A DNA stretch of 64,000 nt, from NCBI RefSeq assembly GCF_035084215.1, contig NW_027138407.1, positions 992,001-1,056,000 on the forward strand. The letters are read 5' to 3'. The stretch is from Heptranchias perlo (Eukaryota). The first letter of the stretch is position 1. Every line of letters starts with the position of its first letter. A program made the translations under genes and the position numbers. The notes below the pieces were generated by a model. That model was not told where the DNA came from. It was given only the letters and a program-made list of their open reading frames with translations, and searched no databases. This document shows, piece by piece, positions 6,350 to 60,694 of this stretch.

Positions 6350-7600
6350 CTACTTCAGTAATAACAGAGACATGGTCTAATTCGGTAATCACTGAGACAG
6401 GACTTACTTTAATATAAACAGAGGCAGGGCCTTGTGCAATAATAACCGAGACAGGGTCTACTGTAATATAGAGACATGGTTTAGTTTAAAATAAACAGAC
6501 ACATAGCCTCGTGTATTGTATACAGAGACATGGACGACTGTAACGGATTTTTGTTAGTTAACTGAAATGTAGCTATGGTGGGTAAATTAAGCTGAGTTGG
6601 AGAACGTCCATGGTGTGATTGAATGGTGGAACAGGCCCGATGGACGGAATGGCCTCCTCCTGTTCCTAAGTAACAGGCTCGAGGGACGGAATGGCTTATT
6701 CTTGTTCCTATCTGCCAGCAGCAGCGGGGCGGGGGAACACGTTCGGTCCCCGTGCGGGCGGCAGCGGCCTGCACTAGCCCAGTGAGCATCGATTAATCTT
6801 CAGGTTGGTTTCATTTTCCAAATTGAGGCCGGGCGCTGCTCAGGGAAAGAATCTCCTTGACTGAAATTAACTGGTGCAAAAAGGGAAAAGGTGCATTCGG
6901 ACCAAATATTAGCAAAGGCTGTTTTATTGTTTTTTATATGTAAGTACCGAATAGAGGAAAAAGTGACAGGACATTAACAGGTTAGTTGCTCCAAGCTGCC
7001 GATTATCCCGTTATGAGGGAAAAGATGAATATTCCGCCCTCAGGACGTGTCCTGCTCCACCGTGGATAGGCTCCAAATTATAACTAGATCTGCTCTGATG
7101 GATATGTTTTTTCCAAAGATGATTCGGCATCGCGATATTAAGTATTCGAGGGTTTAAGAAACACATAGAAAAGAAACACAGGCAGAATTTGGGAACTGGA
7201 TCCTATCCGATTAACGGAGCGGCCAGCAGGGAGTTTGTGGCGGTATCAGCAACCTCTTCTTTGGAGCTGATCTGAACATCGATCCAGGGCTTTAAGGGGG
7301 AAAACAGATGATCAGAAGCAGAAAGTACAGTTCAACCAGTCGATTCATTCTTTGATCGATCTTTCAGAGAGATTGGATTCTGCAGTTTAATTTCTCGGCC
7401 GCTCCTGGAAACACCTGGGCGACAGTTTGATCCGAGGTTAATTTGTTTACCTCTCGTTTTGTGTTTCAGCGCCTGACAGCGCACTGCACATTGTGGTTGC
7501 ATCTGCCCTCGATTCTACACAACTCTCCGCAGCCAGGGCCTCCGGCCTACAGTCCAACGGCAGTTTTTGTACAGGGGTGAGACTGATTTCCATCACTGTG

Positions 7601-8649
7601 ACTCACTGAGAGAGCAGTAATACACGGCAGCGTCAGTCAGCAGCAGCCCGAAGATGGATAAAGTGGTGAAGGTGTTGGAGGGCTGGAGCTCAACAGAGAA
7701 ACGGATTCCGAAACCTTCTCCTTTCTGTTCCTGTGTATCCCAAGACCTTCTCCGCGCTACAAACTGAGGCTTCGTCTCTCTTTGTTGCCGGTACCAATAT
7801 AAATAATAATTTTTGGCTGTGGTACTATAAATACATTCCATAATCACCGATTCACCTTCTCTTCTGCTCTCTGTAGACTTGGACTGATTAACAGATTCTC
7901 CATGACTCTGGTCTGTAACATGTTGAGGAACAAGTTAAGATCAAGTATCAAAAGGTATCAATGAAATAATATTGTATAGAATGTTCAGCGGAGAAACACG
8001 CCAACCGGGCTGATCCGCTGTTTATGCTCCATACGAGCCTCATCCCACCAATCTCCATCTAACCCTAGCAGCAGAACCTGCTATTGCTTTCCCCCTCGTG
8101 TGTTTATCCAGCTTCCACTTAGATGCATCTGTGCACTCTCTGGGTAAAGACGTTTATCCTGAATTCCTTATTGGATGTATTAGTAACTATCTTATATGTA
8201 TGGCCCTCAGTATTGGTCTCCCCCGCAAGTGCGTAACATCTTCTCTACATCTACCCTATCAAAGACCATCGTAATTTTAAAACCTGTGTTAGGTCACCCC
8301 TCTCCCTTCTCTATTCTAGCGAAAAGAGCCCAGCCTTTTCAGTCTTTCCTGAGAGTTATAACCTCTCAGTTCTGGTATCTCGATTGTAAATCTTTTTTAT
8401 TTGCGCCTTCTCCAGTGCCTCGATATCCTTTTTGTAAGATGGAGATCAGAACTGTTCACTGCACTGCAAGTCTGGGCTAACCAACGTTCGATACAAGTTG
8501 AATATAACTTCTCTGCTTTTCAATTCTATCCCTCTAGAAAAGAACCCCAGTATTTTTTTTTAATATTAACACATTAGTTTGAACACGACATGATTGGAGT
8601 CATCCTTACCGAAAATAAATGCCCCAAACACAAGCCAGAATATCCGCAT
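7601..8649 (-). CDS. TRAV/TRDV: TCR alpha/delta V segment, apparently functional (leader 8610-8649, V exon 7601-7912)
   Basis: MRIFWLVFGAFIF|DQSHGESVNQSKSTESRREGESVIMECIYSTTAKNYYLYWYRQ...DAAVYYCSLSE; GT/AG splice sites; RSS CACAGTG-23-ACAAAAACT at 7600-7562. Confidence 0.93.
7975..8550 (-). mobile_element. CR1 3' fragment in the leader intron of the V at 7601
   Basis: CR1 RT-end and 3' UTR similarity to the other CR1 copies in the window. Confidence 0.75.
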
Positions 8650-8907
8650 GGCCGCTGCCGAGCCCGAACCTGTCAGTCCAGTTAAAAGCCCAGTACCGGA
8701 TCCGAATCGTCTCCGTCATGGCTCTTATTGGTTGAACGTCACTTCCGGATCTCGTTTTTCCCCAAATGGCGTAATCTCCAATACACCCGCCATATATGTA
8801 AATATGCTTCAAATGAGGGTCCCAAGGAAACAAACTCAATCATGTTGTGCACGTGCTTAACACAACTTTTACATCATAGTCCCGAATATGTTGGCAGCAT
8901 TTTAGAG

Positions 8908-9451
8908 ATGGCGCCGCTTGGTCTGTTCCTGATGTCCCTTTTAATAGGTAGATTGTGATATGTGTTCCCTGTGCTTGTGTGAATGCCCCTGATGTCCCCT
9001 GTAATAGGCAGATCGTGATAATTGTTCCCTATGCTGCTGTGAATGCTCCTGATGTCCCTTTTAATAGTTAGGTAGTGATATGTGTTCCCCATTCTGGTCT
9101 AAATGCTACAAATTAAGAAAGGAATTAACTGATGATTTAAATCATTTATTACAGGGAAAATCCAAGGGAGTTCAGTGACGCAGCCTCAACGTGAGCTGCG
9201 GGTATCTGAAGGAGATAATCCTGAATTGAATTGCAATTACAACACCAGTTTGGCTGATCCGGATCGTTACTGGTATCGACTGTACCCGAACCAGGCATTA
9301 CAGTTTATATTATACCGTGATAACGCCAGGCGAAAGGATGCCGATTTTGTGAAAGGAAAATTCGATGCTCGTCACTTCAATAAATATCAAGTTTTTCCTT
9401 TATCACTTTCTGCAGCAGAGACTAAAGACAGCGCCGTGTATTTCTGCGGCA
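8908..9451 (+). CDS. TRAV/TRDV: TCR alpha/delta V segment, intact ORF with a short 3' end (leader 8908-8947, V exon 9155-9451)
   Basis: MAPLGLFLMSLLI|GKIQGSSVTQPQREL...LNCNY...YWYRLYP...DSAVYFCG; RSS CACAGTG-24-ACAAAAACC at 9452-9491. Confidence 0.9.
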
Positions 9452-10384
9452 CACAGTGCTGCAGAGATACAGCGAATCCCATACAAAAACCTACACCGAG
9501 AGTTCCAGTTATTGCTCGCCAGAAGGCGCTCCCACACCGATAAACAGAAGCTATAATTGAACCACCACAGTGAGAGTCACAAGGGACCTTCTTAAAAAGG
9601 ACTACAAACCACAACACTCAACAAGAGCAGGTAAGGTCCACTTATGGATTCATGTTAGTTGGTGATTTCAACGTGAATTTATAATAAAAATGAACTTCAC
9701 AATTCCATCTGTGGTGCCTTGACTCCCCTTTGTCTTTTGATGCCCTTTCCATGCCGACTGCAATATTGTGGAGCCCTTTACACACCTCCCCTGTCAGTTA
9801 TCCGGACCCTTTGATCGTGGCCTGTACTCAGATTTCACAAGGTAGTGATTGTGCTCTTCAAAATAAGCCACAAGCACAGACTTCCCCCAATGTCCATTCT
9901 CCTTCAGGATGTCTCCTGAACGCTGGAATGTTTTCTGACACCATTAACAATCGCTGTGCTTCCTGGTTACAATAAACAAACAATGGCTTAATCCGCACCC
10001 CGGTCTCTAAAAGAGAATCCATTTCCCCTATAAGGGGACTGTAGCCCAGCTCGGGGTGAGTTCATTCACTGGCAGCCAGCTCAACACCTATCGGTCTCAC
10101 AGCACCACCGGGGAAACCAGGAAGTGAGGTGAGAGCATATTGAGACACGGTAGCAGAATATTTAGGGTGAGGATTAGAACGGGTGTCTTCAAATATCCAA
10201 CCCCCTTTTACAGAACGAACAGCGACAATACAGCTATTGGACATCTGGATTGTGTGGTGGCCATTTCTGACAGAAATTGTGGACCAAACACATTTAACTT
10301 TTTCTCTCATTTCCAAACACGATTTGAGTCTAAATTTTAAACACGCGCTGATTTGACCTTTTCCTGTTTGAACATGTTTTTCAG

Positions 10385-14885: not shown

Positions 14886-14889
14886 TTAT

Positions 14890-15300: not shown

Positions 15301-15410
15301 TAAACTAAGAATGCAGTTTGGGAATTAAGACGACCTCTGCATCTACTCCCACGGCTTCCTGCGCAGACAGGGGTTTATGTACAGCCACTGCCGTATCTCC
15401 TCTCACAGTG

Positions 15411-15846
15411 TCTTTCAACTGCGCAGTAATAGACGGCGGAATCTGCTGGCACCGAATCTGTAAGGCTAAACTGGCAGCGTTTATCAGATTTGGTGAGCTG
15501 AACTATAAACGGCCCCGTGCGACCTTTCCCGTTCGTCGACTTGCTTATTATCCAGTCTAGCCGTCCGTCTGATCGCTGTCTGTACCAGTGCAAACTGTAG
15601 AAGTTGGATACCGTGTAACTGCAGAGAATGTGTGCGGACCGCCCGACCTGAACTGTGCTGGACGGAGGAGATTGACGGACATCAGCGGCGTGGCCAAGGC
15701 CTGTTAAGATATTGAAATTGTAAAAGGACAATGGTATCAATCATTCCCAACCCCCACCGAGAGTGTATAGTGACTAACAATTACCTACACAATAAGGTGA
15801 TCGCAATCGCTGCTAACAGAACCATCCCCACAGTCCAGAAGTTCAT
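15411..15846 (-). CDS. TRAV/TRDV: TCR alpha/delta V segment, apparently functional (leader 15789-15846, V exon 15411-15700)
   Basis: MNFWTVGMVLLAAIAITLL|CLGHAADVRQSPPS...ILCSYTVSNFYSLHWYRQ...DSAVYYCAVER; RSS CACTGTG-23-ACATAAACC at 15410-15372. Confidence 0.92.
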
Positions 15847-20877: not shown

Positions 20878-21369
20878 ATGAAGCTGAGCTTCACTTTAGT
20901 GTTTATCTCTCTGGGCGTTTTACTCTCCCCTCCATGTGAGTATGGTAATAATCTCTAGCTGTTCAGGAATATTTTGTACCATATTCATTTACATATATTT
21001 ATAAATATATGATATTAATTAGATGATATTATGTTGTATTATGTAATATTATATTGTATTATAATGTATTATATCATATCTACATATGGTTCGCAGATGC
21101 TACTGGCAGTGCCGAAGTAACGCAGTCTCCCGAGTGGATGGTTGTTACCGAAGGAAAGACTGCATCGTTGAACTGTGTCACGACAGTCACAGGACAGCTC
21201 TTACGTTGGTACAGACAATACCCGAACCGAACCGTGCAGCACCTGGCGACCGGTACGAGCGAACAGAACAGGATTAAGGCTCGGTTCAGTTCAGCAGAGA
21301 AGCGCGGTGCTCTGACTGTGAGCGGCGCTCGAATGACAGATACCGCCACCTATTTCTGCACGGTGGAGA
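20878..21369 (+). CDS. TRAV/TRDV: TCR alpha-type V segment with short CDR2, apparently functional (leader 20878-20935, V exon 21097-21369)
   Basis: MKLSFTLVFISLGVLLSPP|YATGSAEVTQSPEWMVVTEGKTASLNC...WYRQYP...DTATYFCTVE; RSS CACAATG-23-ACAAAAACT at 21370-21408. Confidence 0.93.
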
Positions 21370-21594
21370 CACAATGCAGCAAAGATCGGTAGAGACCGTA
21401 CAAAAACTTGCCGGGAGGTGCTGGGCGCTTCCATGCTGTCCCGTTGCCAAAGCGCTGGGCGTTTTATAACACTGTAGCTGGGAAACACCCTTCAGTTTCC
21501 CAGTAAGTGAAGCTGCCTCTGATCTGAGTTCTCTATAATATCAGGCTAGGAGGGTCAATTCCGCTATTTTCTGCCGAACTCCAAACCGGACACC

Positions 21595-27690: not shown

Positions 27691-27788
27691 TGACAAGAGT
27701 GGGTTCATTTGAACTGGTCGCACAGTCTGCGGCAGCTTTATTTTGCTGAGGTTTTTGTACAGCGAGAGATGAGTTTTAAAACGCTGTG

Positions 27789-28231
27789 AGTCTCAGCCCG
27801 CAGAAATATACGGCGGTGTCCTGGATTTCCGTTCGAGTGATCGTTAAAGGAAACTTCTTTGCTGAGTTGGCCTGGCCGGCTTCGAATCTTCCCTTAGCGA
27901 AATCCGCCTCCTGTTTTGCGCTGTTATCCCGATATAAAATAAAACGTGGAGCCTGGTTCGCGTGCGACCGGTACCAGTACAGATCGGGGTTATTGTGGCC
28001 TATAGTGTAGCTACAGTTTATTTTCGCATCATTTCCTTCAGCGACATAGAGCGCGGTCTGAGGTTGCGAAACCGAATCTGCCTGAATCTCCCCTGAAATA
28101 GAAGTAAACTTAGGGTTGAATACAAAACTGATTTAGAAAGTCTATTAACGCCACATTTATGCAAACAAATATAAGGCATGGTCATACCTACCGAGCATAA
28201 ACCACAACAACACGAGATGATGGTACGACAT
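27789..28231 (-). CDS. TRAV/TRDV: TCR alpha/delta V segment, apparently functional (leader 28192-28231, V exon 27789-28092); missed by the ORF track
   Basis: MSYHHLVLLWFML|GEIQADSVSQPQTALYVAEGNDAKINCSYTIGHNNPDLYWYRSHANQAPRFILYRDN...DTAVYFCGLR; RSS CACAGCG-23-ACAAAAACC at 27788-27750. Confidence 0.93.
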
Positions 28232-34544: not shown

Positions 34545-34979
34545 ATGTGCTCCCTGTGTTCCTTACTGATAATAATGATCGTGCTGCCCGGTGAGTCTAT
34601 ATTTAAATGGTCAGTGTGTGTTTCATGGATTATATTTACTCCCAGCCTTTTAACGCATTCTGTATTTTGCTACAGGAACAAGTGGCGAAGATTCAGTATC
34701 CCAGGATCCATCTGAATTAACAGTTCAGGAAGGACAGACCATAATGCTGAATTGCAATTATTCGACAGTGTATACCCCAACTCTCTTCTGGTACATCCAA
34801 TATCCCGGGGAAGCTCCGAGATATTTACTGATGAGATATGGCTCCAGGCAGGGAGATAAGTCTCCAGATTTCCCAGACCGGTTCTCTGCTGATTTGGACA
34901 AAGAGAAGAAAACGGTCCCTTTAAATATCTTAGGGGCTCTTGTCCCTGACTCTGCCGTGTATCTCTGTGCACTGAGCCC
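34545..34979 (+). CDS. TRAV/TRDV: TCR alpha/delta V segment, apparently functional (leader 34545-34590, V exon 34676-34979)
   Basis: MCSLCSLLIIMIVLP|GTSGEDSVSQDPSELTVQEGQTIMLNCNYSTVYTPTLFWYIQYPGEAPRYLL...DSAVYLCALSP; RSS CACACTG-23-ACAAAAAAT at 34980-35018. Confidence 0.94.
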
Positions 34980-36349
34980 CACACTGTTACAGAGGCGCAG
35001 TCAGTCCGTACAAAAAATCAGCAAAGGCCTCTCGCCTGCTCTTACTGAATTGTGAACTGAAAATAGAACAGAAACTAAACTGCAAAGAGAAACAGATGGA
35101 TCCATAAATAGATGGGTAGATAATTAAATAGATAGGAAGGCAGAGAGATAAATAATCTCCCTATCCTGACTTTCTCTTTCAATCATCAAATCTCCTTTGT
35201 TTGAAAGTATCTATCCCATGCAGACAAAATAGAGGCCGTGTGAATTCCAGCTGCGCCGTCTGCGAGTGTAAAACGCGGAGTGTTTCGCGTCTCAGTAACG
35301 GGTTTGTTCTGGTTCATTTTGGAGCTGGACGATGAGATAGTTGGACACGAGAGCTGTTTCAATTATCACTCAGCGTGCCCGACCGCAGCGACACCAAAAG
35401 GTCCATCAGATTGCGAATCGGCTAAAAAAGTTAACTCGGAATATTACTTTAAATTAAACTGTGGAAGTAGCACCTGGGGTCACGTGTTCAAACTAGGACA
35501 GGTCCGTTTGGGAACTGATATCAGGAAATTCTTCAGACACTGGGAGAGATCAATGTGTGGAATCAGTTGCAGATGGAACGGCGAAGGCAAAAACCCTGGA
35601 ATCATTACAGAAAGTGATGGATGCTAAAATGGGGGAGAGGCAGTTAGGTTCTCTCTGGATGAATAAACTAAGAGGTTCCGAATTCTCTCTCCCATCCACA
35701 ACACGGGAATTATTCTGTGATCTCGCAGAATTGCACCTTGCATGTAGTCGCCACCAGAGGGCAGTGGGAAGATGCGTTCACTGTGTTAGTTTCAGTGTTG
35801 GGCCGAGTTACAGACTGAGAACATTGTTCAGTTACTTTATTTAAGAAAAGGGATTAAAGAAACAGGTTCGGAAATAAAGGAATTAATTTCAAATGGAAGG
35901 TGTGTTGTATTCTAAACATTATTATGAATTGTTAAGGCATTATTAATGACAACATGTTGTAAATATTTTGCGAAGCAGCTTACTCCAGTATCACTGAGCC
36001 CATCTGCTGTTCACACCGTCGCATTCTGCTCAAACCTGTCAGTGACTCCCCATTTTATTCATATAAAAGGCGGAGTCTGTCTAATTTACGACAACATTGT
36101 ATTCAAACCCCTTAGGACCGGCTAGCCTTCTATAAGCCCCCTTTGTATCGGTTGTGGATAGTTCTAATGTGTCAGCGAACAGCTCTTTTAATGGGAGCCT
36201 CCGGCACTGATACCAGAACAACAGTAACTATGTCCCTTCACTGTTCCACCTTTCAGATTGACCCTGTTAAAGGGCCAAGATTGGGTTTAACCCCCGTTCA
36301 ATTCTCTGTTGTGAGGAGAACAAGTTCGCTCCGTTCGCCGCTTCCCTTC

Positions 36350-36602: not shown

Positions 36603-37132
36603 ATGTGGGGTGTTACTTTTTATTTATTCGTCACAGCTACAGCTCTACTCACTGGTAAAGTTTACAAGTTACACAATTTTCCTCTTGCGGGTGCCATTGA
36701 GATAGAAAATGTTTCTTTTACTGCTGTTTCCTCTCTATTTTCAAAGCATGCCGTCACCTTTACGGAATGAGTTATCATAAGATGATGATAAAAGCTTAAA
36801 GTTCTATATTTCTAAATTTCTGCAGGTGTTAATTGTGTAGACTCGGTCTCACAGTGGCCGGTTGCAGCGATGCACATTGAAGGAGACACGGTAACCATTA
36901 CTTACAGCTATTCTACCACTGATGTTTCGTATTCCTTACAACTGTACCGTCAGGACGGGGCCAACGCCCCCACATTCCTGATCTACAGCCCTTCCCACGG
37001 GGATGTTTTCAGAGCAGATGGCGTGGGTGCTCGATTTTCCGCATCTCTCGACAGTTCGAAAAGCGTGGGGAATTTCACCGTCCGCGACCTGCGATTGTCT
37101 GACAGCGCTGTGTATTACTGCGGGCTGAGAGG
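36603..37132 (+). CDS. TRAV/TRDV: TCR alpha/delta V segment, open ORF lacking the first conserved Cys (leader 36603-36654, V exon 36826-37132)
   Basis: MWGVTFYLFVTATALLT|GVNCVDSVSQWP...TVTITYSYS (Cys23>Tyr)...LQLYRQ (Trp41>Leu)...DSAVYYCGLR; RSS CACATTG-22-ACAAAAACA at 37133-37170. Confidence 0.85.
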
Positions 37133-37948
37133 CACATTGACAGGAACATAGGGTGCCTCGTACAAAAACACTGCCGGAATGTGACAACATGAATGGGATA
37201 GCGGGCAGTGTGGGGCGAAACGGGGACTGTCAGTACTTTTCACAGGAGAGTGTCGGTGTAAAAACAGGCAAATCCACAACAATCCGGCTAACAATACAGC
37301 ACAGGAATAATCATGTTCATTGTTATTAATAATAACCGTGCTGTTAATTTCATAATAAGAGGTTTGATGGGACTGTGCTTCCAATTCCTGTTCATTTAAT
37401 GGGCACCTTAACTTTCAACTTTAGGGAAACTAATATGAAACCAGTTCTCATTCTCTGTCTCAGGCCTTTTGTTGCAGTCGGCAGGAAATGAGCTGAATGG
37501 AGGCGACACATTCGGTACTGGTTCAATCTGCAGAGAGACCCTTAAATGAATGACAAGAACGGCCGAGAATCAGATCCCCGTTATTCCGCTCCTCAGCACA
37601 TTATGGGGAACACCAATGTTTTTCCGGCTATTTCTTTTAAGGTGCGAGTTAGGGGTTAGTTGCTCCCATTTCGATAAATTTCAAACCTCTCTGATCATGG
37701 GCTGAGATTTCTTCTGTCACGTGATCTCTGCCTTCCGTTGTGCCTGTTGAGGACGTTTGTCAAGAAGATCGGTCCGAGGACCGTTCTTCGACCAGGCAGT
37801 CTCTTGCCCAGGCGTTCTATTCTCCCTGAAAATGACGTTCGATGAGCTTTTAATTCCAACTGCACCAGGTGCTTTACTCTGGGTTAGACCGACACTTCCC
37901 ATCCAATAACCAGTTTTTCACAAGAGGCGATACAGTTCAGCTCAGACA

Positions 37949-41750: not shown

Positions 41751-42062
41751 CCAGTTCCAGGCCAGCTGCAGGTGTGTGTATTCTCAGTGGGATTGGCGAT
41801 TTCCCTGAGATTCACAAATAAAACAGCACCAAATTCTTCCCTCACACAGTTAATGCAATAATCAGACGGAATCAGTATTCTATGTGAAAGGTTTCGTATG
41901 AGGTTGATGTGGTGTCCGCTCGGGGTCTGCGCGCACAGGAATGTATTCACGTGTCAATGATTGAGCCGCTGTAAAAAGAAACAGCCTGCACCAGACAGAG
42001 TCTGTGACCCAGAAACCTGCGGCAGTTAATGTACGAGGCATTAGTTCGTTCCCATCAACGTG

Positions 42063-43073
42063 AGACTCAGTGCACAGTAATACACCGCGGTGTCAGACAG
42101 CCGCAGGTCCGAGATGTTCAAACGGTACAACTTGTCTGACTGTCGGACTGCATCAGAAAACCGTTTTTTAGCGAAATCCGCCTGATATTCATTACCGCCG
42201 TACGTGTACCTCCGGACTGCAAACTCGGGCAGTCTGCCCGGGTATTGGCGGTACCAGAATAAGTAATAACCATCGTTGTTATAGGTGCAGGTTAAAGTGA
42301 CATCTTCACCCTCTGTCTGTGTGACCGAGGACTCCCTCTGGGTAACAGAAACTCCATCGCTCAGATCTGGAACACACGGTTAAAGAAGACAAAAATCAAA
42401 CATTAAACTTTCAAACTGAACTAAACTGACGGTGAAAATGCGGAGTGAGTTTTACATAGGATTACATAGAATTTACAACAGAGAAGCAGGCCATTCGGCC
42501 CAACTGGCCGATGCCGCTGTGTATGCTCCACACGAGCCTCCTTCCATCTTCATTTCACTATATCAGCATAACCTTTTGTTCCTATCTCCTCGTGCACTTA
42601 TGTGGCGTCCCCTTAAATGCATCCATGCTATTCGCTTTAATCACTCCATGGTCTTGCGAGTTCCACATTCTAACCACTCTCTGTGTAAAGGAGCTTCTCC
42701 TGAATTTCTTACTGGATTTATTAGTGACTATCTGATATTTATCACGCCTAATTTTAAATACTCCCATAAGGGGAAACATTGTCTCTACGTCTACTCTATC
42801 ATTTCCCTTCGTAATTTTAAAGACCTGTATTAGTTCACCCCTCTGCCTTCCCCTTTCTAAAGAAAAGAACTCCAGCCAGTTCAGTCTTTGCTGATAGTTA
42901 TAACCTTTTAGTTCTGGTAGTCCAAGTGAGGTCTAAGCAAGGTTCGATACAATTTAACATAACTTCTCTGCATTTCAAATCTTTTCCTCTAGCAATGAAC
43001 CCCTTTTAAAAGTTTTAACTTTCTTACCGAAAATGAATGTCACACACACCATAGTGAGAACAGAGAGCCGCAT
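42063..43073 (-). CDS. TRAV/TRDV: TCR alpha/delta V segment, apparently functional (leader 43028-43073, V exon 42063-42366); missed by the ORF track
   Basis: MRLSVLTMVCVTFIF|DLSDGVSVTQRESSVTQTEGEDVTLTCTYNNDGYYLFWYRQYPGRLPEFAVRRYTYGGNEYQADFAKKRFS...DTAVYYCALS; RSS CACGTTG-23-ACATTAACT at 42062-42024. Confidence 0.92.
42460..43005 (-). mobile_element. CR1 3' fragment in the leader intron of the V at 42063
   Basis: FTQRVVRMWNS... on minus; CR1 tail. Confidence 0.8.
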
Positions 43074-43365: not shown

Positions 43366-44121
43366 GACGTCTCCTCAAAGTGACAAAAATAATGTTCGAA
43401 TATAGATGAAAATGTTCAGTTTATTTTACTCACTGTCACTAATCCGAGGTGATTGAAAGTGGTTCGGGTTTGATTAACTTTCTGCGGAAGTAGAAGATTT
43501 CCTGTAGTCTCTCTGTGTGTTAGCGACATGGCACACATAGCGGGAGATCTCCTCCGACCGCTAGATTAGTGTTTTCGTGAATGATTCTTTGAGAATGCGT
43601 TCACTGTGTCGCTAGAAATAGCGACCAGAGCAAATCTACTCCAGAGATTGGACACCTCGGTGTAGACACGAATGTTAGAGGAGAATGAACTTAATGCTCG
43701 CTGCGAGCTGTCACACACCGGCAGAAATGAAACAAACACTCAGCAAAGTGACGGGTTAGAGCCCGTTGAATAAAACCCCAAACCTCAGCAAAGCTGCAAA
43801 TTTTGTGTTGGTTTATGTGATGTAAAAAAGATGAAAAATGCAGTGAAGAGGGAAAACTTGAAATTGAACACACATTACACGTTGGCCCATTAAACGTGCG
43901 CGAGGTTTCTCCTGTTCATCCCTCACTGAAGAATGAATTAAATCTAAACTCGGACTCTTCAATTCAGACCTGATGGGAGCTGCCCTGTGGGGATATTGTG
44001 TGCTGACAGTAAATGTCCTGTTCGCGGCATCACAGGCGGGTAGTCCGGCCATACACACTGTTCGATTTACACACAGTGCTGCAGTTTTTGTACAGGACGG
44101 GCTCGGAGATGTGCAGCTGTG

Positions 44122-44565
44122 GGTCTCAGAGCGCAATAATACACAGCGCTGTCTGACAGCTCCGCCTCGGAAACTCTGAGATGAACCGTGCTCTCCTCTG
44201 TGTTCAGCTCTGCCGTAAAACGTTCCTTGGCGAAGTCTGCTGGGAACGTGTCATATTTGGCAATAAGCAACACGTTTATCGGCGCCCGACCGGGAAGATG
44301 CCGGTACCAGAAAATCCGAGGGTCTGCATCTGTTGTTTTAAAACTACAATTCAGCGTCACCGTTTCTCCTTCCAGCACCGTCCTGACCGAAGAGTCCTGA
44401 TGCACAGAATCGCCACCAACGCTGTCGGCTGGAAGAGAAATTGAACATTTACAAATATCCGCCCGACCAACCGAACCTATTCGTATTTTTTGTACTCGGG
44501 TTCCAAGTGTACTTACACAGCACAAACAGGGCCAAAAGCCCACTGAAATAAACAGGGAAACACAT
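44122..44565 (-). CDS. TRAV/TRDV: TCR alpha/delta V segment, apparently functional (leader 44517-44565, V exon 44122-44428)
   Basis: MCFPVYFSGLLALFVL|SDSVGGDSVHQDSSVRTVLEGETVTLNCSFKTTDADPRIFWYRH...DSAVYYCALR; RSS CACAGCT-23-ACAAAAACT at 44121-44083. Confidence 0.93.
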
Positions 44566-45970: not shown

Positions 45971-47204
45971 TATGTGCCAGAGAACAGCAACATCCCATTG
46001 CGGTTCTGAGCTACGTGTTAACGCGTGAAGCCAAGCCCGTGTTGCCACGAGTTGGCGCTGAGAACTTGTAAAATTAGGTGTCAGAAAACGGGCAATGAGA
46101 GTTTATATTTGTGAATCTATCGTAAGTGGAAAACTTCCTTTGGATATAAGGGTATGAAACGGTATTTCTAGGTAAATCGTAATTGCTTTTTTGAACAACT
46201 AAATTTCAGAAAGAACGCATTTAAGATCCATTTCGAGATGGAGACCACAAGAAACCTTGGTGCAGGGATTTACGATTCGCTGCACTCAGTGATTAGATGA
46301 TTTATTCCCAACATCCCTCAGTTATTTCGTTCGTCGCATGTAGCAGTACAATTTTACATAGAATGTACTGAGCAGCTCTTAGCGATTCCCGGGATATTTT
46401 CAACGCAGCAAATGGGACCGAGAGACTGCAGAAATTCGTTCCACAGAGCCACCAAGTGGGCAAATCCTAGAATGACACGGTGACTGTTCTCCTGGATCAA
46501 AGTTACCACTCGTGTCCCTTTAACTGTTCTTCTGAATTCATTCCATGGAATCACAGAGTTCTACTGCACAGAAGGAGGTGGTTCGGTCCATCTTGTCTTC
46601 GCCGATTCTATGAATGAGCCACCCAATTAGTCACACTACCCGCACTTTCCACATAGCTCTGCACTATTTTCCTGTTCTAGTAAGTATCTACTTCCCTTTT
46701 TGGAATTCCTTATTAGATAGGAAGGCTGTGTTCCATAAAAGATTTGTGATATTGTACAGAGAGATGATGCAGCTGACTGGTTCTCGGAAATGGTTCGTCC
46801 TGTTCTGTATGTAATTGCGCGCCTCTATGTGTTCGTCTCTATCTCTCAATAATGTATATATACACATATATGAGAGTTAATTATATAGAAAAGATGAATA
46901 AAAGAGAGCGTGAAGGAGGATGTAAAGCTACGCTGTAAAATTTGAAAATAATTGTAAATTGCCCAATTGTAGGTGTTCCTGGTGACCTCGCCTCACGCGA
47001 GCTGTTTAAAATACAATCAAAATTGCCGTTTGAGACCTGTTGTGAATTTTTTGTGCAACTGAACCTTAGCAGTTGATAAAGAGACGGACACCACTGGTTC
47101 GCTAACCTGACGAAAGCTCACCAAAGACCAGTTAACTGTTCCCATCCAGACCCCTATCAAGCTGTAAATACTCGCTGACGTTTTTGCTTTTAGATGACAC
47201 TTTG

Positions 47205-47508
47205 CCTAACAGCACAATAATAGTCACCCTCCCCCCACTCCCGCCATCCACACTCAAGTCATTTATATTGAGGTAAGCGTACTTTTCAGGCGCCTCAACA
47301 GCCTTCAAATATTGTCCTGAAATTTGGACTCCTTTCAGTGTTGCTACTTTGCTAATTATCCAGCTTGGGCGCTGTGCCATTTCCTGCCGATACTTTGTAT
47401 GAGAGAAATAAACGGGGTTGTGTAATCGCAATCTAACTCTACCGAACCCTCTGCTGACCACGGCTATTGTCACCGGAGTCTGAGTTACTCATTCTCTACA
47501 TAGTCGGC
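47205..47508 (-). pseudogene. TCR V pseudogene (paralog of 22119)
   Basis: KYAYLNINDLSVDGG...; frameshift; heptamer CAAAGTG, nonamer lost. Confidence 0.8.
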
Positions 47509-48485
47509 CTGTGAAGAAAGGGGAACAGAAGAACAGGAGGTTAAACAGGATCGATCTAAATTTGTCTAACTGTGTGTGTGTGCAAACTTTCATCCACCCA
47601 GCTGCTCATCATATGCATATTTTCACCGGTAATTGCACTAACTCCCTGCAAAAGCTCTTTGCATCAATCTGCTAACCTGTGTTGCTTAATACAATCCAAT
47701 ACTTACTGTCCAACACAGCCGCCAGTAATATTAGGAAAGTGTCTGAATGAATCCCTCACAGTGACAAGGTATGGAATGAGACGGAGATTGAGATGGAGAG
47801 CGGTCACCCGGGGACAGTTCAGCTCATTGTTCCACACTCGCACTGGAGGGGCTGGGCCCGATTTGGACGTTGCTCAGGAGTCGACCGCTCTTGGCTTTAT
47901 TGCTTGCATCACGTGACTTTAGATTTTCTTGCTTGAGTTTGGCGCCTTCTGGTGGCGGATTCTGTTAAATCCGATTTAGAATGAGGTCATTGAGTGGATT
48001 TAGGATTTATGGATCGTATATAAAAACACGTGTGCCAAGGTATTGTGACTCAACGATCTAGATTAGAGATGATTCAACCCGCTCGTTATTTCTGATGCTG
48101 TGTCATCTCTTCATTTCACTCCCACTTCATTGGTTTCGAATGACATGATCAGCTAGCAGGATCAGTTTGTAAACTAACCTCTCCAGACATAACCATTGCC
48201 CTTTCCGCTCCATCAGCTTCAAGTGCAGCTGAGCGGCGCTGCACACTTTTTACTGTTGCACAGAGACTTGAATTCGCGCAATTTTGAGACTGCGGCAGCC
48301 CCGCCCACATTCTCCTTTTGCTGCTCTTGCACTGAGCCGCCTTGATTGCCCTGTGTTATTGGAGAGATTGCTGTAGCTTTTTCGCATTCGTCAGGTCAGC
48401 AGTGCGGTGGGGTGGGGAGGGGATTTGCATTTCTGCTCCGACAGAGGATTTCCCGGACTGCAGAATTACAGACTTTGAGAGCATT

Positions 48486-48957
48486 ATGCAGAACCGTCTC
48501 ACATCGCTCTTCATCATTATATCACTTCTCAGTAAGTATTTCTTTCCCAGTAACAATTCCGCCCTCACCTCACTGCCGTAACCCAGATTTTATTGGCAAA
48601 GTAAAGATGATGATGGTGATAATAATGGTGACTATTACTATTAATTTCTGTTAGAATTGAGTCATCAAGATCAAGACACAGTGGAACAGTTGCATCCTGA
48701 AATGATGGTTGAAGAGGAAAGTAATGTCACATTAACCTGCACCTTGAAAACAAACGATCCTAACCCTTATGTGTTCTGGTACAGTCAGCACCTCGAGCAG
48801 CCTCCACAGTACATGCTTCGTGTTATCGGAGTGAGCAGGAACACCGACAGCACTGGTCGATTCTCTTCTACCTTTAATAAAACCAGCAGGATTACCGAGC
48901 TAACAATCGGTAAAGCCCTGATCTCTGATACCGCCGTATATTTCTGTGCCATGGACC
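48486..48957 (+). CDS. TRAV/TRDV: TCR alpha/delta V segment, apparently functional (leader 48486-48531, V exon 48655-48957)
   Basis: MQNRLTSLFIIISLL|KLSHQDQDTVEQLHPEMMVEEESNVTLTCTLKTNDPNPYVFWYSQ...DTAVYFCAMD; RSS CACACTG-24-ACAAAAACC at 48958-48997. Confidence 0.92.
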
Positions 48958-49114
48958 CACACTGCTGCAGAGATAGCGCGGATCCCGTACAAAAACCCAC
49001 ACTGAGGGTTGCAGTTAGTGCTCACCAGAGGGCGCTCCCACACCGATAAACAGAAGCAATAATTCAGTCTCCACAGTGAGAGTCACAGGGGACCTTCCGG
49101 AAAGGGCAACAAAA

Positions 49115-52100
49115 GGGGTACGGCAGCATAGTGGTTATGTTACTGGACCAGTAATCCAGAGGCCTGGAATAAAAATCCGGAGTCATGAATTTAAATACTG
49201 CCACAGCACATAGTGAATTTAAATGCAATTAATTAAATTTAATTAATTAAATAAAAAATCTGGAATTAAAATACTAGTATCAGTAATGGTGGCCATAAAA
49301 CTACCGGATTGTCGTAAAAACTCATCTGGTTCACTTATGTCCTTTCGGGAAAGAAACCTGCTGTCCTTACCCGATCTGGCCAATATGTGACACCAGACCC
49401 ACAGCAATGTGGTTGATTCTTAATTGCCCTCTGAAATGGCCGAGCAAGCCACTCAGTTGTAAAATCTCGCTACGAAAACTCATAATAACAATAAAACCGG
49501 ACGGACCACTAGGCACCGGACACGACAACGGCAAACCAAGCCCAGTCGACCCTGCAAAGTCCTCCTTACTAACATCTGGGAAATTGTGCCAAAATTGGGA
49601 GAGCTGTCCCACACGCGAGTCAAGCAACAGCATGACATAGCCATACTCACAGAATCATACCTTTCAGCCAACGTCCCAGACACTTCCATCTCCATCCCTG
49701 GGTATGTCCTGTCCCACCGGCAGGACAGTCGCACCAGAGGTGGCGGTACAGTGATATACAGTCAGGAGGGAGTGCCACTGGGAGTCCTCAACATTGACTC
49801 TGGACCCCATGAAATCTCATGGCATCAGGTCAAACATGGGCAAGAAAACCTCCTGCTGATCACCACCGACCGTCCTCCATCAGCTGATGAATCAGTCCTC
49901 CTCCATGTTGAACACCACTTGGAGGAAGCACTGAGGGTCACGAGGGCACAAAATGTACTCTGGGTGGGGGACTTCAATGTCCATCACCAAGAGTGGCTCG
50001 GTAGCACCACTACTGACCGAGCTGGCCGAGCCCTGAAGGACATAGCTGCCAGACTGGGCCTGCGGCAGCTGCTGAGCGAACGAACACGAGGGAAAAGCTT
50101 ACTTGACCTCGTCCTCACCAATTTACTTGTCGCAAATGCATCTGTCCATGACAGTATTGGTAGGAGTGACCACTGCACAGTCCTCATGGAGAAAAAAGTC
50201 CCATCTTCGCACTGAGGACACCATCCAACGTGTTTTGTGGCACTAACACCGTGCTAAATTGAATAGATTCAGAACAAATCTAGCAACTCAAAACTGGGCA
50301 TCCATGAGGCGCTGTGCTCCATCAACAGCAGCAGAATTGTATTCCAGCACAATCTGTCACCTCGTGGCCCGGCATATTCCTCACTCTACCATTACCAACA
50401 AGCCAGGGGATCAACAGTGGTTCAATGCCGAGTGTAGAAGAGCATGCCAGGAGCAGCACCAGGCGTACCTAAAAATGACGTGCCAACATGGTGAAGCGAC
50501 AACTCAGGACGACCTGCATGCTAAACAGCGGAAGCAACATGCTATAGACAGAGCTAAACGATTCCACAACCAACGGATCAGATCAAAGCTGTGCAGTCCT
50601 GCCACATCTAGTCGTGAATGGTGGTGGACAATTAAACAACTAACGGGAGGAGGAGGCTCTGCAAACATCCCCATCCTCAATGATGGCAGAGTCCAGCACG
50701 TGAGTGCAAAAGACAAGGCAGAAGCGTTTGCAACCATCATCAGCCAGAAGTGCCGAGAGAATGCTCCATCTCGGCCTCCTCCCGATATCCCGACCATCAC
50801 AGAAGCCAGTCTTCAGCCAATTCGATTCACTCCACGTCACATCAAGAAACGGCTGAGTGCACTGGATACAGCAAAGGCTATGGGCCCTCAAAACATCCCA
50901 GCTGTACTGCTGAAGACTTGTGCTGCAGCACGAGCTGCGCCTCGAGCCAAGCTGTTCCAGTACAGCTACAACACTGGCTTCCACCAGACAATGTGGAAAA
51001 TTGCCCAGGTGTGTCCTGCCACAAAAAGCAGGACAAATCCAATCCGGCCAATTACCGCCCATCAGTCTACTCTCAATCATCAGCAAAGTGATGGAAGGTG
51101 TCGTCGACAGTGCTATCAAGCGGCACTTACTCAGCAATAAACAGCTCACCGATGCTCAGTTTGGGTTCCGTCATGACCACTCGGCTCCAGACCTCACTAC
51201 AGCCTTGGTCCAAACATGGACAAAAGAGCAGAATTCCAGAGGTGAGGTGAGAGTGACTGCCCTTGACATCAAGGCAGCATTTGACCGAGTTTGGCACCAA
51301 GGAGCCCGAGTAAAATTGAAGTCAATGGGAATCAGGGGGAAAACTCTCCAGTGCCTGGAGTCATACCTAGCACTAAGGAAGATGATAGTGGCTGTTGGAG
51401 GCCAATCATCTCAGCCCCAGGACATTGCTGCAGGAGCTCCTCAGGGCAGTATCCTCGGCCCAACCATCTTCAGCTGCTTCATCAATGACCTTCCCTCCAT
51501 CATAAGGTCAGAAATGGGGATGTTCGCTGATGATTGCATAGTGTTCAGTTCCATTCGCAACTCCTCAAATAATGAAGCAGTCCGAACCCACATGCAGCAA
51601 GACCTGGACAACATCCAGGCTTGGGCTCATAAGTGGCAAGTAACATTCGCGCCAGATAAGTGCAAGGCAATGACCATCTCCAACAAGAGAGAGTCTAACC
51701 ACCGCCCTTTGACATTTAATGGCATTACCATCGCCGAATCTCCCACCATCAACATCCTGGGGGTCACCATTGACCAGAAACTTAACTGGACCAGCCATAT
51801 AAATACTGTGGCTACGAGAGCATGTCAGAGGCTGGGTATTCTGTGGCGAGTGACTCACCTCCCGACTCCCCAAAGCCTTTGCACCATCTACAAGGCAACA
51901 GTCAGGAGTGTGATGGAATACTCTCCACTTGCCTGGATGAGTGCAGCTCCAACAACACTCAAGAAGCTCGACACCATCCAGGACAAAGCAGCCCGCTTGA
52001 TTGGCACCCCATCCACCACCCTAAACATTCACTCCCTTCACCACCGGCGCACTGTGGCTGCAGTGTGTACCATCCACATGATGCACTGCAGCAACTCGCC

Positions 52101-52423
52101 AAGGCTTCTTCGACAGCACCTCCCAAACCCGCGACCTCTACCACCCAGAAGGACAAGAGCATCAGGCACATGGGAACAACACCACCTGCACGTTCCCCTC
52201 CAAGTCACACACCATCCTGACTTGGAAATATATCGCCGTTCCTTCATCGTCGCTGGGTCAAAATCCTGGAACTCCCTTCCTAACAGCACTATGGTAGAAC
52301 CGTCACCACACGGACTGCAGCGGTTGAAGAAGGCGGCTCACCACCAACATCTCAAGGGCAATTAGGGATGGGCAATAAATGCCGGCCTCGCCAGCCACGC
52401 CAACATCCCATGAACGAATACAA
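49115..52423 (+). mobile_element. Near full-length non-LTR retrotransposon (CR1 group, Zenon-like; single APE+RT ORF broken by stops and frameshifts) with a tRNA-like 5' head
   Basis: APE motifs ILTESYL, GDFNVHHQEWLGS and SDH; RT motifs ALDIKAAFDRVWH, GAPQGSILGP and MFADD; TSD aacaaaa at 49108-49114 and 52424-52430; empty paralogous site at ~9600. Confidence 0.92.
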
Positions 52424-56810: not shown

Positions 56811-58977
56811 TATGCTATTATATTCTTAGTGAAGTTAAGCTCTTTGTTTATCACTACCGTAGGGATTTACCTGATTCAGAAAATCAAAAAGAACTGGAGG
56901 TGCCATACTGATACAAATGCAGTAAAGGGGTTGCTTCACCTTAGGAAGTAGACCAACACAAACGTCGAACAGAATCTCTCTGGCCCATCTATCTGCCCAC
57001 CCATCCGTTCGTCATTCCATCCATTCATCCATTCATCCGTTCATCGGTCCATTAACAAAATTATTCAGAAATCCAACTATCCATGCATTCTTACATCCAT
57101 TCATCAATTCACGCAAACATGCATGTTTATGCATTTCAGGATATATCCTCTCTCTGAGGTCTTCTCTCTATCTATCTATCTATCTATCTCTCTATCCAGC
57201 CAACTATCGATCGATCATCTGTCAGCCTTTCTGTCTGTTGAAATCCGAACTCAAACTATGGTTCTGTTGCTCTTTATTGTATTTACTTTACAATTAAAAG
57301 TTTGTGATGTGCTTGACCGATCCTTCAGCTTGCTGGTGCTACTGTTAGGGTGTCTGACTCCTGGAAATCTGTGCTTAATTGAGACATGGATACGGTTGCA
57401 CACAGTAACGCAACTAAAAAAAATAAAATTAACTTCAGTACTGTTGCTGGGTAGATCTGTACATAAACAGGCCTCACTCACAATGTTAAGGGTTTGAAGT
57501 TGGCTTTCAGCCAAGCGGTCAGTAGTCAGGAAACAGATCTTTGATTTACTGCACAGAAACCCCAGATGTTTCCTGTAAATGGCATTGGGTGTTCGAGCCT
57601 CCCTGACGGCAGTGGGCTGGGTTGCTGCCAAATAATGTGTGGGGCAGATTGACTTGAATGTGAATGGCAAACAAGATGGGATTTTAAGTATTTGAACATT
57701 AAATTTTTCAGTAGCGCCCTTAAAAGAAACAAACATGTTATATAGTATAACTTCTGAAGAATAATTTTCGGTAAATGTCATGCTCACTACATCAGAATGT
57801 AGGATCAGAAAATAATAATTTGCTCCATATGCTATTTAATTTAAATTATTACCAAATACAGATAACTCTAGATTATTCCGGCCACATGTTCAGTAATGAA
57901 TGAAACGCTAGGGATATATTTTAATGACCCCATACCCACACTGTAAGGACATGAGTGGGAATTGCAAAGTAAATAAAAAATAGGCGGAATGGCCTTGAAC
58001 CCGCTGCACTTCCTTAAATATTCTCACAGACTTATGTGCCTCTTTTAAACTAAGGACCCTCTCATTACTGATCAGTCCCGGCGTACTGTAAAGTTCAATT
58101 TGTACTGATTTGGATTCCTTAACAAGCCTTCTGATAGCCCAGCTACCAATCCGTGGAGAAATGCTTAGTTTGCAATCTGTTTCAGGGGCAGATAAAACAT
58201 TTATTTTTGTGATATTCTGTAGCCTACCGCTAAGTCCTGATATAGTGTGTCCCTGATACCAGCCTGTCGCTATTAAAGTTCGATGCAAGGATTTGGATGC
58301 CGGGGAAATAGGTTTGCTGATCACGTTATCGGTTCTCTTTTTCAAAAGCTGATCAGACGCGGGCGGGCCGCACATTCTTATGTGTCTCTGTCGACTCACT
58401 CATTAATTATCGGGCAAGCTGATTTATTTTACACCTAATTTTCAAAGGCTGTCTTAGGATCACAGACTCAAGGGGCAGTTAGAGGAATGTAAGTGTAGAT
58501 ACTTGTAAAACGTTAGAGGTTTCCATACATCTCCTGATCCAAATCGTGTAGCTATAGCCGCCCACGCTATAAACAGAATCATGTTACCCATCTTGATTCT
58601 TAGAGACTCACATCAATAAAAGGCTTTTATTGATGGTCCACAATGTAATTAATTATGACTCAAACATTCTGAACTGCAGTATTACCATTTATTACCAAGG
58701 AACCATTGCATTGAAACTATACTGCCAATTAACCATCCCTGTATATAGATAAACAATCTACCTTTAACAAAAAACTAACGTAAAAATATGAGCGCATTCT
58801 GTTTGTGTGATGTGGATTCAGGCGCCGCCTGTATCAGGGAATTAGTGGGCGGCGCCTGTAACCTCGCCCCCTTCTACCGGGTATTTAAATTCCGGTCACC
58901 GGGACCGCAATACAACAGTCCGGGAGCCGTTTTGCTCAGTGAGTTCTCGCCAGAACCATTTCCCCCAAATGCCTCCA

Positions 58978-59458
58978 ATGATGAGGTCGGCGATTTCTCT
59001 CAGTCTGTTGCTGGCTTTCTTAGCCCGTGAGTAGTTTTTATTGTCCAAGTCTCTCACTGTTACTGTCTTTGTTTTAGTCTGTCACTGGAATGTTACAGGG
59101 TCAGGAAGCATTTCATCAGAATTAATCCTCGGGGTTTCTGATTTTTTTTACAGGTGTCCAGTCGGACGTCGTGTTGACTCAGCCTGAGGCAGAGACCAGT
59201 AGTCCCGGAGGGTCCCTGAAACTGACCTGTAAAACCAGCGGGTTCAATCTTGGCACCTACCACATGTTCTGGGTCCGACAGGTTCCCGGGCAGGGGCTGG
59301 AGTGGCTGGTTAGATACTACAGTTCATCAAACAATGCTTACGCCCCAGGGATTCAGAGTCGATTTACTGCGTCCAAAGACACTTCAAGCAACATCTTCGC
59401 TTTGGACATGAAGAACCTGAAGACCGAAGACACCGCCTTCTATTACTGTGCAGGAGAC
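58978..59458 (+). CDS. IGHV: Immunoglobulin heavy-chain V segment, shark IgM type, intact (leader 58978-59026, V exon 59154-59458)
   Basis: [16 protein letters not shown]|[102 protein letters not shown]; RSS CACAGTA-23-TCAAGAACA at 59459-59497; TATA-like tatttaaa at ~58882. Confidence 0.96.
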
Positions 59459-59907
59459 CACAGTAAGAGGAAACAGACCTGGACCCGTTCAAGAACAGAT
59501 GGAGGAGACATCTAACAAGATCCATCATAGCTTGACGGTCAGTAATTGTATCAAATGCAATATTAACGGCAGTGTTCAGCACCAGACCGCAAGCCGCTTC
59601 TTAGAAAACGAATACACTGAAAATCAATGGTAAAATCTGATATACTAACTGATGTACTGAGGAAAACGCTTGCTAAGGCTTAAGTTTTCTGTTGGCTGTG
59701 TCAGAAATTGGAGACCCGGCTGGAACCAATATAGTTTAACCCTGGCACGGTGCCGAGTAGAATTCTGTTCCGTGTGTGTCGCTTGGCGAAAAGTCTTGGT
59801 TCAATTCTTATCCAGATCAGGAGGAAATGTTTATTTCAAAGGGAATGTTGAGAGACAGCGTTGAACAGAGAGTGTGTGCAGTATATGTACGGGGATGTGT
59901 CACTGTG

Positions 59908-59919
59908 ACTACAGTGGGT
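59908..59919 (+). other. IGHD: IgH D1 segment (actacagtgggt) with 5' 12-RSS and 3' 22-RSS
   Basis: agtatatgt-12-cactgtg (59880-59907) | D | cacggtg-22-acaaaaacc (59920-59957); the canonical shark D1 layout. Confidence 0.93.
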
Positions 59920-60288
59920 CACGGTGCTGGACAGAGCGAACTCCTCGTACAAAAACCCCAGACGGGCAAGCTGCTGAAACCGGCTATCAGCGGCAGTATG
60001 ACTGGCAGCAAAATTCAATTAACTCACATTTAGTTATTGATTAGAAATAACGTGGTTTTACAAGACTGGAAAAAGCTCACGTGAAGTGGCGGGTTTATAT
60101 TGTGTGTAAAGTCTCTACAGTTGCATTAACGCCCGTTTTAAAGATAATGACTTGTTCTTACTGATACAGCATAGTGAATCATCACTGATGAATATGAATA
60201 GAGATCATGAACCCAAATTTGGAATTCTATATTTGTCGAACAAAGGTATAGGTCCGCAGGGGTATTTGATACGGTGAGTATCACTGTG

Positions 60289-60301
60289 ACACAACTGGGG
60301 T
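60289..60301 (+). other. IGHD: IgH D2 segment (acacaactggggt) with 12/12 RSSs
   Basis: ggtatttga-12-cactgtg (60261-60288) | D | cacagca-12-acaaaaccc (60302-60329). Confidence 0.93.
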
Positions 60302-60694
60302 CACAGCATTAACTGTCAATACAAAACCCCCCACAACACTAATAGAGTGATTCTGGCTCATTGCTGTGTGTGTTTTACCCAACCCTGTATGTAAAGCATT
60401 TTAGTTTGATTCATTGTTAAAAGGAACTCCAGCTCTAACAGGATTCAAGCAAATAAAAGGCACATATTATTAATTAATCCGTTGCCGTACTGTGGAAATG
60501 TTCGTCCATTAATTCATAAAGACCAATGCAATTTTCAAACAACTAAATATATCCATAAGGGGATTAATATTATTATGAAAATCTATTGTTTACTTTTGCT
60601 CTGTGCTGGTGAACATTTGAAATAATATGTGTATTGTTCTATTCTACACAGAGCCCGTTACAGTGTGACCCAGCCCAGGGAATGTAACACTGTG

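What the first reader, a model, noticed from the sequence alone, without database searches (positions are those of the whole stretch)
7562..60329. 12/23-compatible substrates for TCR-V to IgH-D-J chimeric rearrangement in cis
Seen: every intact TCR V here has a ~23-bp RSS, and the IgH D1 5' RSS and both D2 RSSs are 12-bp. The 12/23 rule (established) therefore allows plus-strand TCR Vs (e.g. 48486, 34545, 20878) to join D1 or D2 by deletion, and minus-strand Vs by inversion. Inference: this could give antibody heavy chains with TCR V domains, the reciprocal of the known IgHV-TCR delta chimeras.
Basis: inference. Interest (0 to 1): 0.7.

Follow-up and report, generated by a model that had tools for sequence, protein, structure and literature searches.

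The report
IgM gene nested among TCR Vs
A complete, working shark antibody (IgM) gene sits inside the T-cell-receptor gene array, and its joining signals would allow a neighbouring T-cell-receptor variable piece to be fused onto it, but no such fusion was seen and it is likely at most a rare by-product, most plausibly in developing T cells.

Summary
Ten open-frame TCR alpha/delta V genes carry 22-24-bp RSSs (7 exactly 23). D1 is 12/22 and D2 12/12, far above shuffled background. The D segments belong to an intact IgM minilocus (L-VH-D1-D2-JH-Cmu1-4-secretory-TM), one of two nested mid-way in a TCR V array whose J/C genes lie 187-357 kb away on the minus strand. RNA-like contigs from one animal show leader splicing, VH-D1 and VH-D2 joints, VH-JH joints and JH-Cmu1 splicing. 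No TCR V was seen on D or JH, but the test was weak: 6 of 7 foreign-V contigs were unresolved, and the TCR-side lay was swamped by repeats. 12/23 compatibility is generic. Nurse-shark IgH rearranges within miniloci, also in thymocytes, where no Ig transcripts were detected (PMC2435157). IgH-TCR linkage is published (PMC12227049). The best chimera candidate is V48486: nearest, deletional, with an IgM-facing CTCF-like motif 24 bp past its RSS. Verdict: a known arrangement with a permitted but unshown by-product. The scan raised the same idea in another genome (e1-8602384).

The parts
7562..8649 (-). TCR alpha/delta V, open frame, 23-RSS (heptamer 7600)
8908..9491 (+). TCR V, open frame, short 3' end, 24-bp-spacer RSS (9452)
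15372..15846 (-). TCR V, open frame, 23-RSS (15410)
20878..21408 (+).
27750..28231 (-). TCR V, open frame, 23-RSS (27788)
34545..35018 (+).
36603..37170 (+). Atypical TCR V (first Cys and Trp replaced, a family trait), 22-bp RSS (37133); leader splice seen in X1
42024..43073 (-). TCR V, open frame, degenerate 23-RSS (42062)
44083..44565 (-). TCR V, open frame, 23-RSS (44121)
48486..48997 (+).
49022..49035 (+). CTCF-like motif (recalled consensus, 1 mismatch) 24 bp past the V48486 nonamer, pointing at the IgM cluster; also present in 3 of 3 paralogs; binding untested
58978..59026 (+). IgM VH leader exon, spliced 59026->59154 in RNA-like contigs of X1, X2, X3
59154..59497 (+). IgM VH exon and its 23-RSS (heptamer 59459, nonamer with 3 mismatches), used in joints; 78% identical to a Triakis IgM V
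59880..59957 (+). D1 (59908-59919) with 5' 12-RSS and 3' 22-RSS
60261..60329 (+). D2 (60289-60301) with 12-RSS on both sides
60656..60743 (+). JH with 5' 23-RSS (heptamer ends 60694); spliced to Cmu1, which lies just beyond the window (Cmu1-4, secretory tail and TM exons at +65.2 to +73.6 kb)

Best explanation
The window ends in an intact, expressed shark IgM minilocus nested in the TCR alpha/delta V array; it joins its own VH, D1, D2 and JH, while a TCR V joining to D1 or D2 is allowed by the signal spacers but is likely at most a rare by-product, most plausibly in thymocytes, and likely not an antibody class. Shown: the segments, RSS spacers and orientations, intact C exons, and spliced and rearranged RNA-like contigs of this cluster. 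Inferred: the cluster's own VH (450 bp from D1) out-competes TCR Vs 11-52 kb away. In B cells the TCR Vs are likely closed. In thymocytes, where nurse-shark IgH clusters are cut by RAG and TCR Vs are open, occasional deletional joins of plus-strand Vs (V48486 first) would form. Such a chain would lack a light-chain partner in a T cell and would likely be retained or degraded. The TCR Vs' normal partners are the Ddelta, 10 Jdelta-like and 79 Jalpha-like segments on the minus strand. Minus-strand Vs distal to the clusters would delete both IgM clusters when they join Jalpha.
For: Intact Cmu1-4, secretory and TM exons. One search shows 15 of 24 joint rows: 11 VH-JH, 2 VH-D, the leader splice and a germline cryptic splice. 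The two VH-D contigs run on into this cluster's own D1-D2 and D2-JH spacers, so they are cluster-specific. No loose end is shown in front of D1 or D2 (18 of 21 rows shown). All 11 readable V domains on shark Cmu1-bearing database proteins are VH type. Nurse shark: rearrangement within miniloci; 1 of 58 thymic VDD-J clones was interlocus; IgH rearranged in thymocytes with no Ig transcripts detected (PMC2435157, passages and section 6). TCR J/C map. The same RSS layout occurs in an IgM cluster on another contig.
Against: The chimera was not really excluded. All four runs are one sample, 'RNA' is a guess, and contigs drop rare variants. 9 joint rows and 3 loose-end rows were hidden, and 6 of 7 foreign-V JH contigs had no visible V. 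Some short-sided VH-JH joints may come from other IgM clusters, whose VH ends and D1 resemble them. The TCR-side lay showed no junction letters. V48486 has features that would favour capture in the mouse RAG-scanning model: convergent RSS and a CTCF-like motif just 3' of the RSS facing the cluster, like proximal mouse VH genes (PMC7930373 passages). The cluster's own VH nonamer is weak. The reciprocal IgHV-TCRdelta chimeras are real in sharks (PMC5931798, PMC12227049 passages), so this region is leaky in at least one direction.
Confidence: 0.75

Rival explanations
1. TCR Vs next to the nested IgM clusters are used regularly in B cells and give secreted or membrane IgM with a TCR alpha/delta V domain, the reciprocal of IgHV-TCRdelta chains.
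For: Compatible RSSs and five deletional plus-strand Vs; intact, expressed acceptor locus. V48486 has an RSS-adjacent CTCF-like motif facing a leftward motif 22 kb beyond the cluster. It alone of 4 family members has a perfect octamer 56-63 bp before its ATG.
Against: None seen or among 11 Cmu1-linked V domains. Long-distance IgH recombination is 'rare, if it exists' in nurse-shark B cells (PMC2435157 section 6). Octamers are at chance level in the window (6 vs 4.0 expected) and none lies before the cluster's VH. The CTCF-like motifs are traits of TCR V cassettes, not of IgM. The TCR Vs have a light-chain-like FR2 rather than the VH 'GLEW' motif, so pairing with a light chain is doubtful (inference).
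Confidence: 0.07
2. The IgM clusters are effectively insulated, so TCRV-D joins do not occur at a detectable level in any cell; a loop anchored just outside the last TCR V RSS would confine RAG to the clusters.
For: No CTCF-like motif with 1 or fewer mismatches lies between 49035 and +95.2 kb. A rightward motif at 49022 and leftward ones at +95.2 and +139.1 kb bracket both clusters, with no TCR V detected between. RAG activity is confined to convergent CBE loops in mouse (PMC7930373 passages). No chimera was seen.
Against: The motifs are predictions from a recalled consensus and are cassette-borne. An RSS-adjacent CBE promotes rather than blocks V use in mouse IgH (PMC7930373). One interlocus IgH clone and rare IgV-TCR cDNAs are reported in nurse-shark thymus (PMC2435157).
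Confidence: 0.15
3. In thymocytes, TCRV-to-D joins and distal Valpha-Jalpha joins serve to delete the VH or the whole nested IgM clusters, so nesting would be a way to silence these Ig genes in T cells.
For: Geometry: many distal TCR Vs are on the minus strand, so joining Jalpha removes both clusters; a plus-strand V-D1 join removes VH and its promoter.
Against: 11 of 13 IgM clusters lie on another contig and cannot be removed this way. Thymocytes already show no Ig transcripts from rearranged IgH (PMC2435157), so deletion is not needed.
Confidence: 0.03

Closest known systems
Elasmobranch antigen-receptor complex: IgH miniclusters linked to TCR alpha/delta (Flajnik 2025, PMC12227049; sections 6 and 15 and passages read, table S1 not readable)
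   Same: IgM miniclusters beside the TCR alpha/delta translocon, with TCR-type V exons between IgH clusters; proximity is proposed there to allow trans-rearrangements. A catshark IgM gene model also runs into a TCR V of a family found here (61% identity).
   Different: The sections read discuss VH-to-TCRdelta joins and do not describe the reverse direction. Here two complete IgM clusters lie in the middle of the V array, with TCR Vs on both sides and opposite in orientation to the TCR J/C genes.
Nurse-shark IgM minilocus VH-D1-D2-JH-Cmu (Malecek 2008, PMC2435157; passages and section 6)
   Same: One VH, two Ds and one JH within 2 kb; partial VD intermediates; joining within the cluster.
   Different: The nearest foreign 23-RSS is 11 kb away and belongs to a TCR V; the nurse-shark miniloci studied were at least 120 kb from each other.
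Shark IgHV-TCRdelta chimeras and TAILV (seen as passages in PMC5931798, PMC6795676, PMC5192425, PMC12227049; the primary papers Criscitiello 2010, Deiss 2019 and Ott 2021 were not held)
   Same: Ig and TCR segments joined under the 12/23 rule in this region; IgH-like Vs sit next to Ddelta here too.
   Different: Known chimeras put a VH on TCR D-J-C in T cells. The proposed product is the reverse, was not observed, and would need TCR V access in B cells plus light-chain pairing.
Human interlocus hybrids, including inv(14) IgV-TCR C fusions (PMC2191748: abstract passages and reference titles only)
   Same: RAG-made hybrid receptor genes arising as rare by-products.
   Different: In mammals the loci are far apart; here the join would be a short cis deletion of 11-50 kb.

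Membership tests
Elasmobranch IgM minilocus | One VH, two Ds, one JH within about 2 kb with 23/12-22/12-12/23 RSSs | tested here: met
Elasmobranch IgM minilocus | Four Cmu exons, secretory tail and TM exons, open frames | tested here: met
   Cmu4 plus tail matches IgM constant chains in the PDB; Cmu1 is 80% identical to a horn-shark Ig heavy C region
Elasmobranch IgM minilocus | Somatic rearrangement within the cluster and J-to-Cmu splicing | tested here: met
   VH-D1 and VH-D2 contigs continue into cluster-specific spacers; JH-Cmu1 loose ends in all 4 runs; one sample only
TCR alpha/delta V array | V-set exons with 23-RSS linked in cis to Ddelta-Jdelta-Cdelta-Jalpha-Calpha | tested here: met
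   the window Vs fall outside the VH clade
TCR alpha/delta V array | Window Vs joined to TCR J in transcripts | tested here: inconclusive
   V36603 leader spliced and contigs stop at its 3' end, but junction letters were crowded out by repeats
Ig-TCR chimeric receptor (reciprocal type) | 12/23-compatible RSSs in cis | tested here: met
Ig-TCR chimeric receptor (reciprocal type) | TCRV-D-JH coding joints exist in lymphocyte DNA or RNA | tested here: inconclusive
   none seen (low power, rows hidden, 6 of 7 foreign-V contigs unresolved); uninformative; 0 of 11 database V domains on shark Cmu1
Ig-TCR chimeric receptor (reciprocal type) | Chain pairs with a light chain and reaches the surface or is secreted | not testable with these tools
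   needs protein work on lymphocytes or expressed chains

The most novel reading that the evidence does not exclude
V48486 is a TCR alpha/delta V being co-opted by the neighbouring IgM cluster. It is the nearest V, lies in deletional orientation, has a mouse-VH-like CTCF site just 3' of its RSS that faces a convergent site beyond Cmu, and alone in its family carries a promoter octamer. Shark B cells would then make IgM heavy chains with a TCR V domain, a living version of the TCR-to-Ig V transfer proposed for the origin of IgNAR.
Probability: 0.07. Interest if true: 0.8.

Novelty: new member of a known kind. Interest (0 to 1): 0.3.

Why it matters
If TCR V domains were used on IgM, the Ig/TCR V pools of sharks would be shared in both directions, giving a direct route for the V-domain exchange invoked for IgNAR and NAR-TCR. 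If they are not, this locus is a clean test of what keeps B- and T-cell recombination apart when compatible signals lie 11 kb apart on one DNA molecule: lineage-specific access, simple proximity or CTCF loops. Either answer needs only a few PCR or bait-sequencing experiments. The arrangement itself is already described in outline for other sharks.

Tried and rejected
No RNA holder was on record; four runs guessed to be RNA, from one sample, were used. Laying them on 33500-49300 was swamped by repeat contigs: 512 loose-end rows were hidden and no TCR V junction letters were shown. The lack of cover over V43073, V44565 and most of V48486 is therefore not counted as evidence. Searches for longer proteins containing V34545 or V48486 gave one hit each, both read-through gene models without a C domain; weak evidence. 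The idea that the second cluster pairs an IgW V with Cmu was rejected: its V groups with the VHs of the off-contig IgM clusters (99/88). An IgM-specific 3' insulator was rejected: the leftward CTCF-like element has 4 copies on the contig and two lie upstream of TCR V cassettes. A looser CTCF scan (2 mismatches) was near background, 15 vs 8.9. Octamer enrichment was rejected. A D-like 11-mer seen in foreign junctions was found in 0 of 100 loci. A V tree did not resolve whether the window VH is sister to the Ddelta-proximal IgH-like Vs. No structure or complex job was run, because a V exon without its J strand is not a fair model of the chimeric domain. Literature searches listed no report of TCRV-DH-JH-Cmu chains, but the primary shark chimera papers were not held and table S1 of PMC12227049 could not be read, so absence from print is not established. 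PMC10322711 and PMC3964593 (passages) added only general linkage context.
Full report
Observation. A heptamer/nonamer scan of the window found 17 sites with 22-24-bp spacers and 4 with 11-13-bp spacers, against 1.15 and 0.53 in 40 shuffles. Ten TCR V genes have open frames and plausible leaders, five on each strand (Pfam V-set). Their spacers are 23 bp in 7, 24 bp in 2 and 22 bp in 1. D1 has a 12-bp 5' and a 22-bp 3' signal, D2 is 12/12, and VH and JH have 23-bp signals with poor nonamers. The deletion/inversion rule applies only to the 5' signals of D1 and D2; D2's 3' signal reverses the geometry.

Context. The window is G000:C240:992001-1056000. I mapped 884 kb around it (motif scans 13, 20, 30, 46). 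From the left, all on the minus strand, lie Calpha-like (-357 kb), 28 Jalpha-like hits, a second Calpha-like (-274 kb), 51 Jalpha-like hits, Cdelta (-200 kb), 10 Jdelta-like hits and Ddelta (-187 kb). Three IgH-like Vs follow, then TCR Vs on both strands up to window 49 kb. Two complete IgM clusters lie on the plus strand (VH at +59 kb and +100 kb). TCR Vs resume at +145 kb and run to at least +463 kb, mixed with NAR-TCR units. Cmu4 search gives 13 copies at 83% identity or more: 2 on this contig and 11 on another. Cluster 1 has four Cmu exons, a secretory tail and TM exons with open frames. Its VH is 78% identical to a Triakis IgM V.

Expression and recombination. Four runs guessed to be RNA, all from one sample, hold the cluster. 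On 58500-61500, 15 of 24 joint rows were shown: the leader splice, 11 VH-JH joints with inserted letters, a VH-D1 joint, a VH-D2 joint and a cryptic splice of the unrearranged gene. The two VH-D contigs continue into this cluster's own spacers, so this locus does rearrange. JH is spliced to Cmu1 in all four runs. Some short-sided VH-JH joints may come from other IgM clusters, whose VH ends are similar. A TCR V could appear here only as a loose end in front of a D or JH. Of 21 loose-end rows 18 were shown; none lies in front of D1 or D2, and three lie in front of JH (7 contigs). One of these reads as the cluster-2 VH; six show no V letters. A second lay over five TCR Vs showed the V36603 leader splice and cover of the V34545 bin in run X1, but repeats hid the junctions. 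So the chimera was not seen and not excluded.

Databases. A search with Cmu1 for longer proteins gave 15 hits. I read the 11 with a V-set label: 10 have a VH-type V and one has none. Of 4 further representatives read out of 150 listed, one has a shark Cmu1 with a VH-type V. That makes 11 of 11 VH type. One catshark gene model runs from Cmu2 into a TCR V of a family present here (61% identity), which suggests that the adjacency is shared with other sharks.

Mechanism. Shown: anatomy and rearrangement within the cluster. From the literature: nurse-shark IgH rearranges within miniloci, long-distance events in B cells are rare if they exist, 1 of 58 thymic VDD-J clones was interlocus, and thymocytes rearrange many IgH loci without detectable Ig transcripts (PMC2435157). 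Inferred: VH at 450 bp out-competes TCR Vs at 11-52 kb. The cell in which TCR Vs and IgH Ds are open together is the thymocyte, so any TCRV-D join is most plausibly a thymic by-product without a light-chain partner. The TCR Vs have light-chain-like second frameworks, which makes pairing with a light chain doubtful (sequence; the structural reading is recalled).

What keeps the novel reading alive. Four CTCF-like motifs (recalled consensus) occur in the window against 0.42 expected. One lies 24 bp past the V48486 nonamer and faces the cluster. No such motif follows until leftward ones at +95.2 and +139.1 kb, about 22 kb beyond each cluster. In mouse IgH, a site just 3' of the RSS promotes use of proximal VH genes, while convergent sites also confine RAG (PMC7930373), so the pattern cuts both ways. 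The motifs are cassette traits: three paralogs of V48486 share the site, and the leftward element also precedes TCR V cassettes elsewhere. V48486 alone among 4 paralogs has a perfect octamer before its ATG, but octamers are at chance level and the cluster's VH has none.

Comparison. Linkage of IgH miniclusters to TCR alpha/delta, with TCR Vs between clusters, is published and is used to explain VH-to-TCRdelta joins (PMC12227049). The IgHV-TCRdelta chimeras were seen as passages in PMC5931798, PMC6795676 and PMC5192425. The primary papers were not held, and table S1 of PMC12227049 could not be read; either may bear on novelty. Seven searches listed no report of the reverse chimera. The scan noted the same idea in another genome with the same verdict (e1-8602384); that is not independent support.

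Verdict. The locus is a new member of a known arrangement. The reciprocal chimera is permitted, unshown and likely rare. Interest 0.3; probability of a functional TCRV-IgM class about 0.07.

Noticed in passing
window 59536 -> 60651: All four runs carry the unrearranged gene spliced from a cryptic donor behind the VH RSS to a cryptic acceptor before JH, then to Cmu1. The VH frame stops at about 59516, so it is likely a sterile transcript; cluster 2 seems to do the same (X4 record 22).
   Followed up: partly
G000:C240, window coordinates -357 kb and -274 kb: Two Calpha-like genes, each with its own Jalpha array (28 and 51 motif hits), lie in tandem.
   Followed up: no
   Followed up: no
window 20534, 35751, 47942, 49022 and loci L024-L040: CTCF-like motifs are enriched around TCR V cassettes, pointing away from the V on both sides, and are absent over the IgM clusters.
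   Followed up: partly
window 48423-48430: Perfect octamer 56-63 bp before the V48486 ATG; the three paralogs differ at two positions, two of them with a TATA-like word there.
   Followed up: partly
window 60289-60301 and L022:2575-2590: IgH D2 and the TCR Ddelta share an 8-nt core, so a D match alone cannot tell the source of a junction.
   Followed up: yes
window 36603-37132: A TCR V family lacking the first Cys and the conserved Trp (3 members on the contig) is nonetheless spliced in RNA-like contigs.
   Followed up: no
window 59130-59470: The nested VH is single-copy; its DNA is closer to the IgH-like Vs beside Ddelta (72-74%) than to other IgM/IgW VHs (68-69%), though the protein tree leaves the relation open.
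   Followed up: partly
G000:C383:33081-38768: A 43-kb contig repeats the Ddelta-proximal IgH-like Vs of C240 with identical match scores; likely a duplicated haplotig.
   Followed up: no
window 49463-52365: A near-full LINE-type element (endonuclease and reverse transcriptase frames, broken into pieces) lies between the last TCR V and the IgM VH (family label recalled).
   Followed up: no
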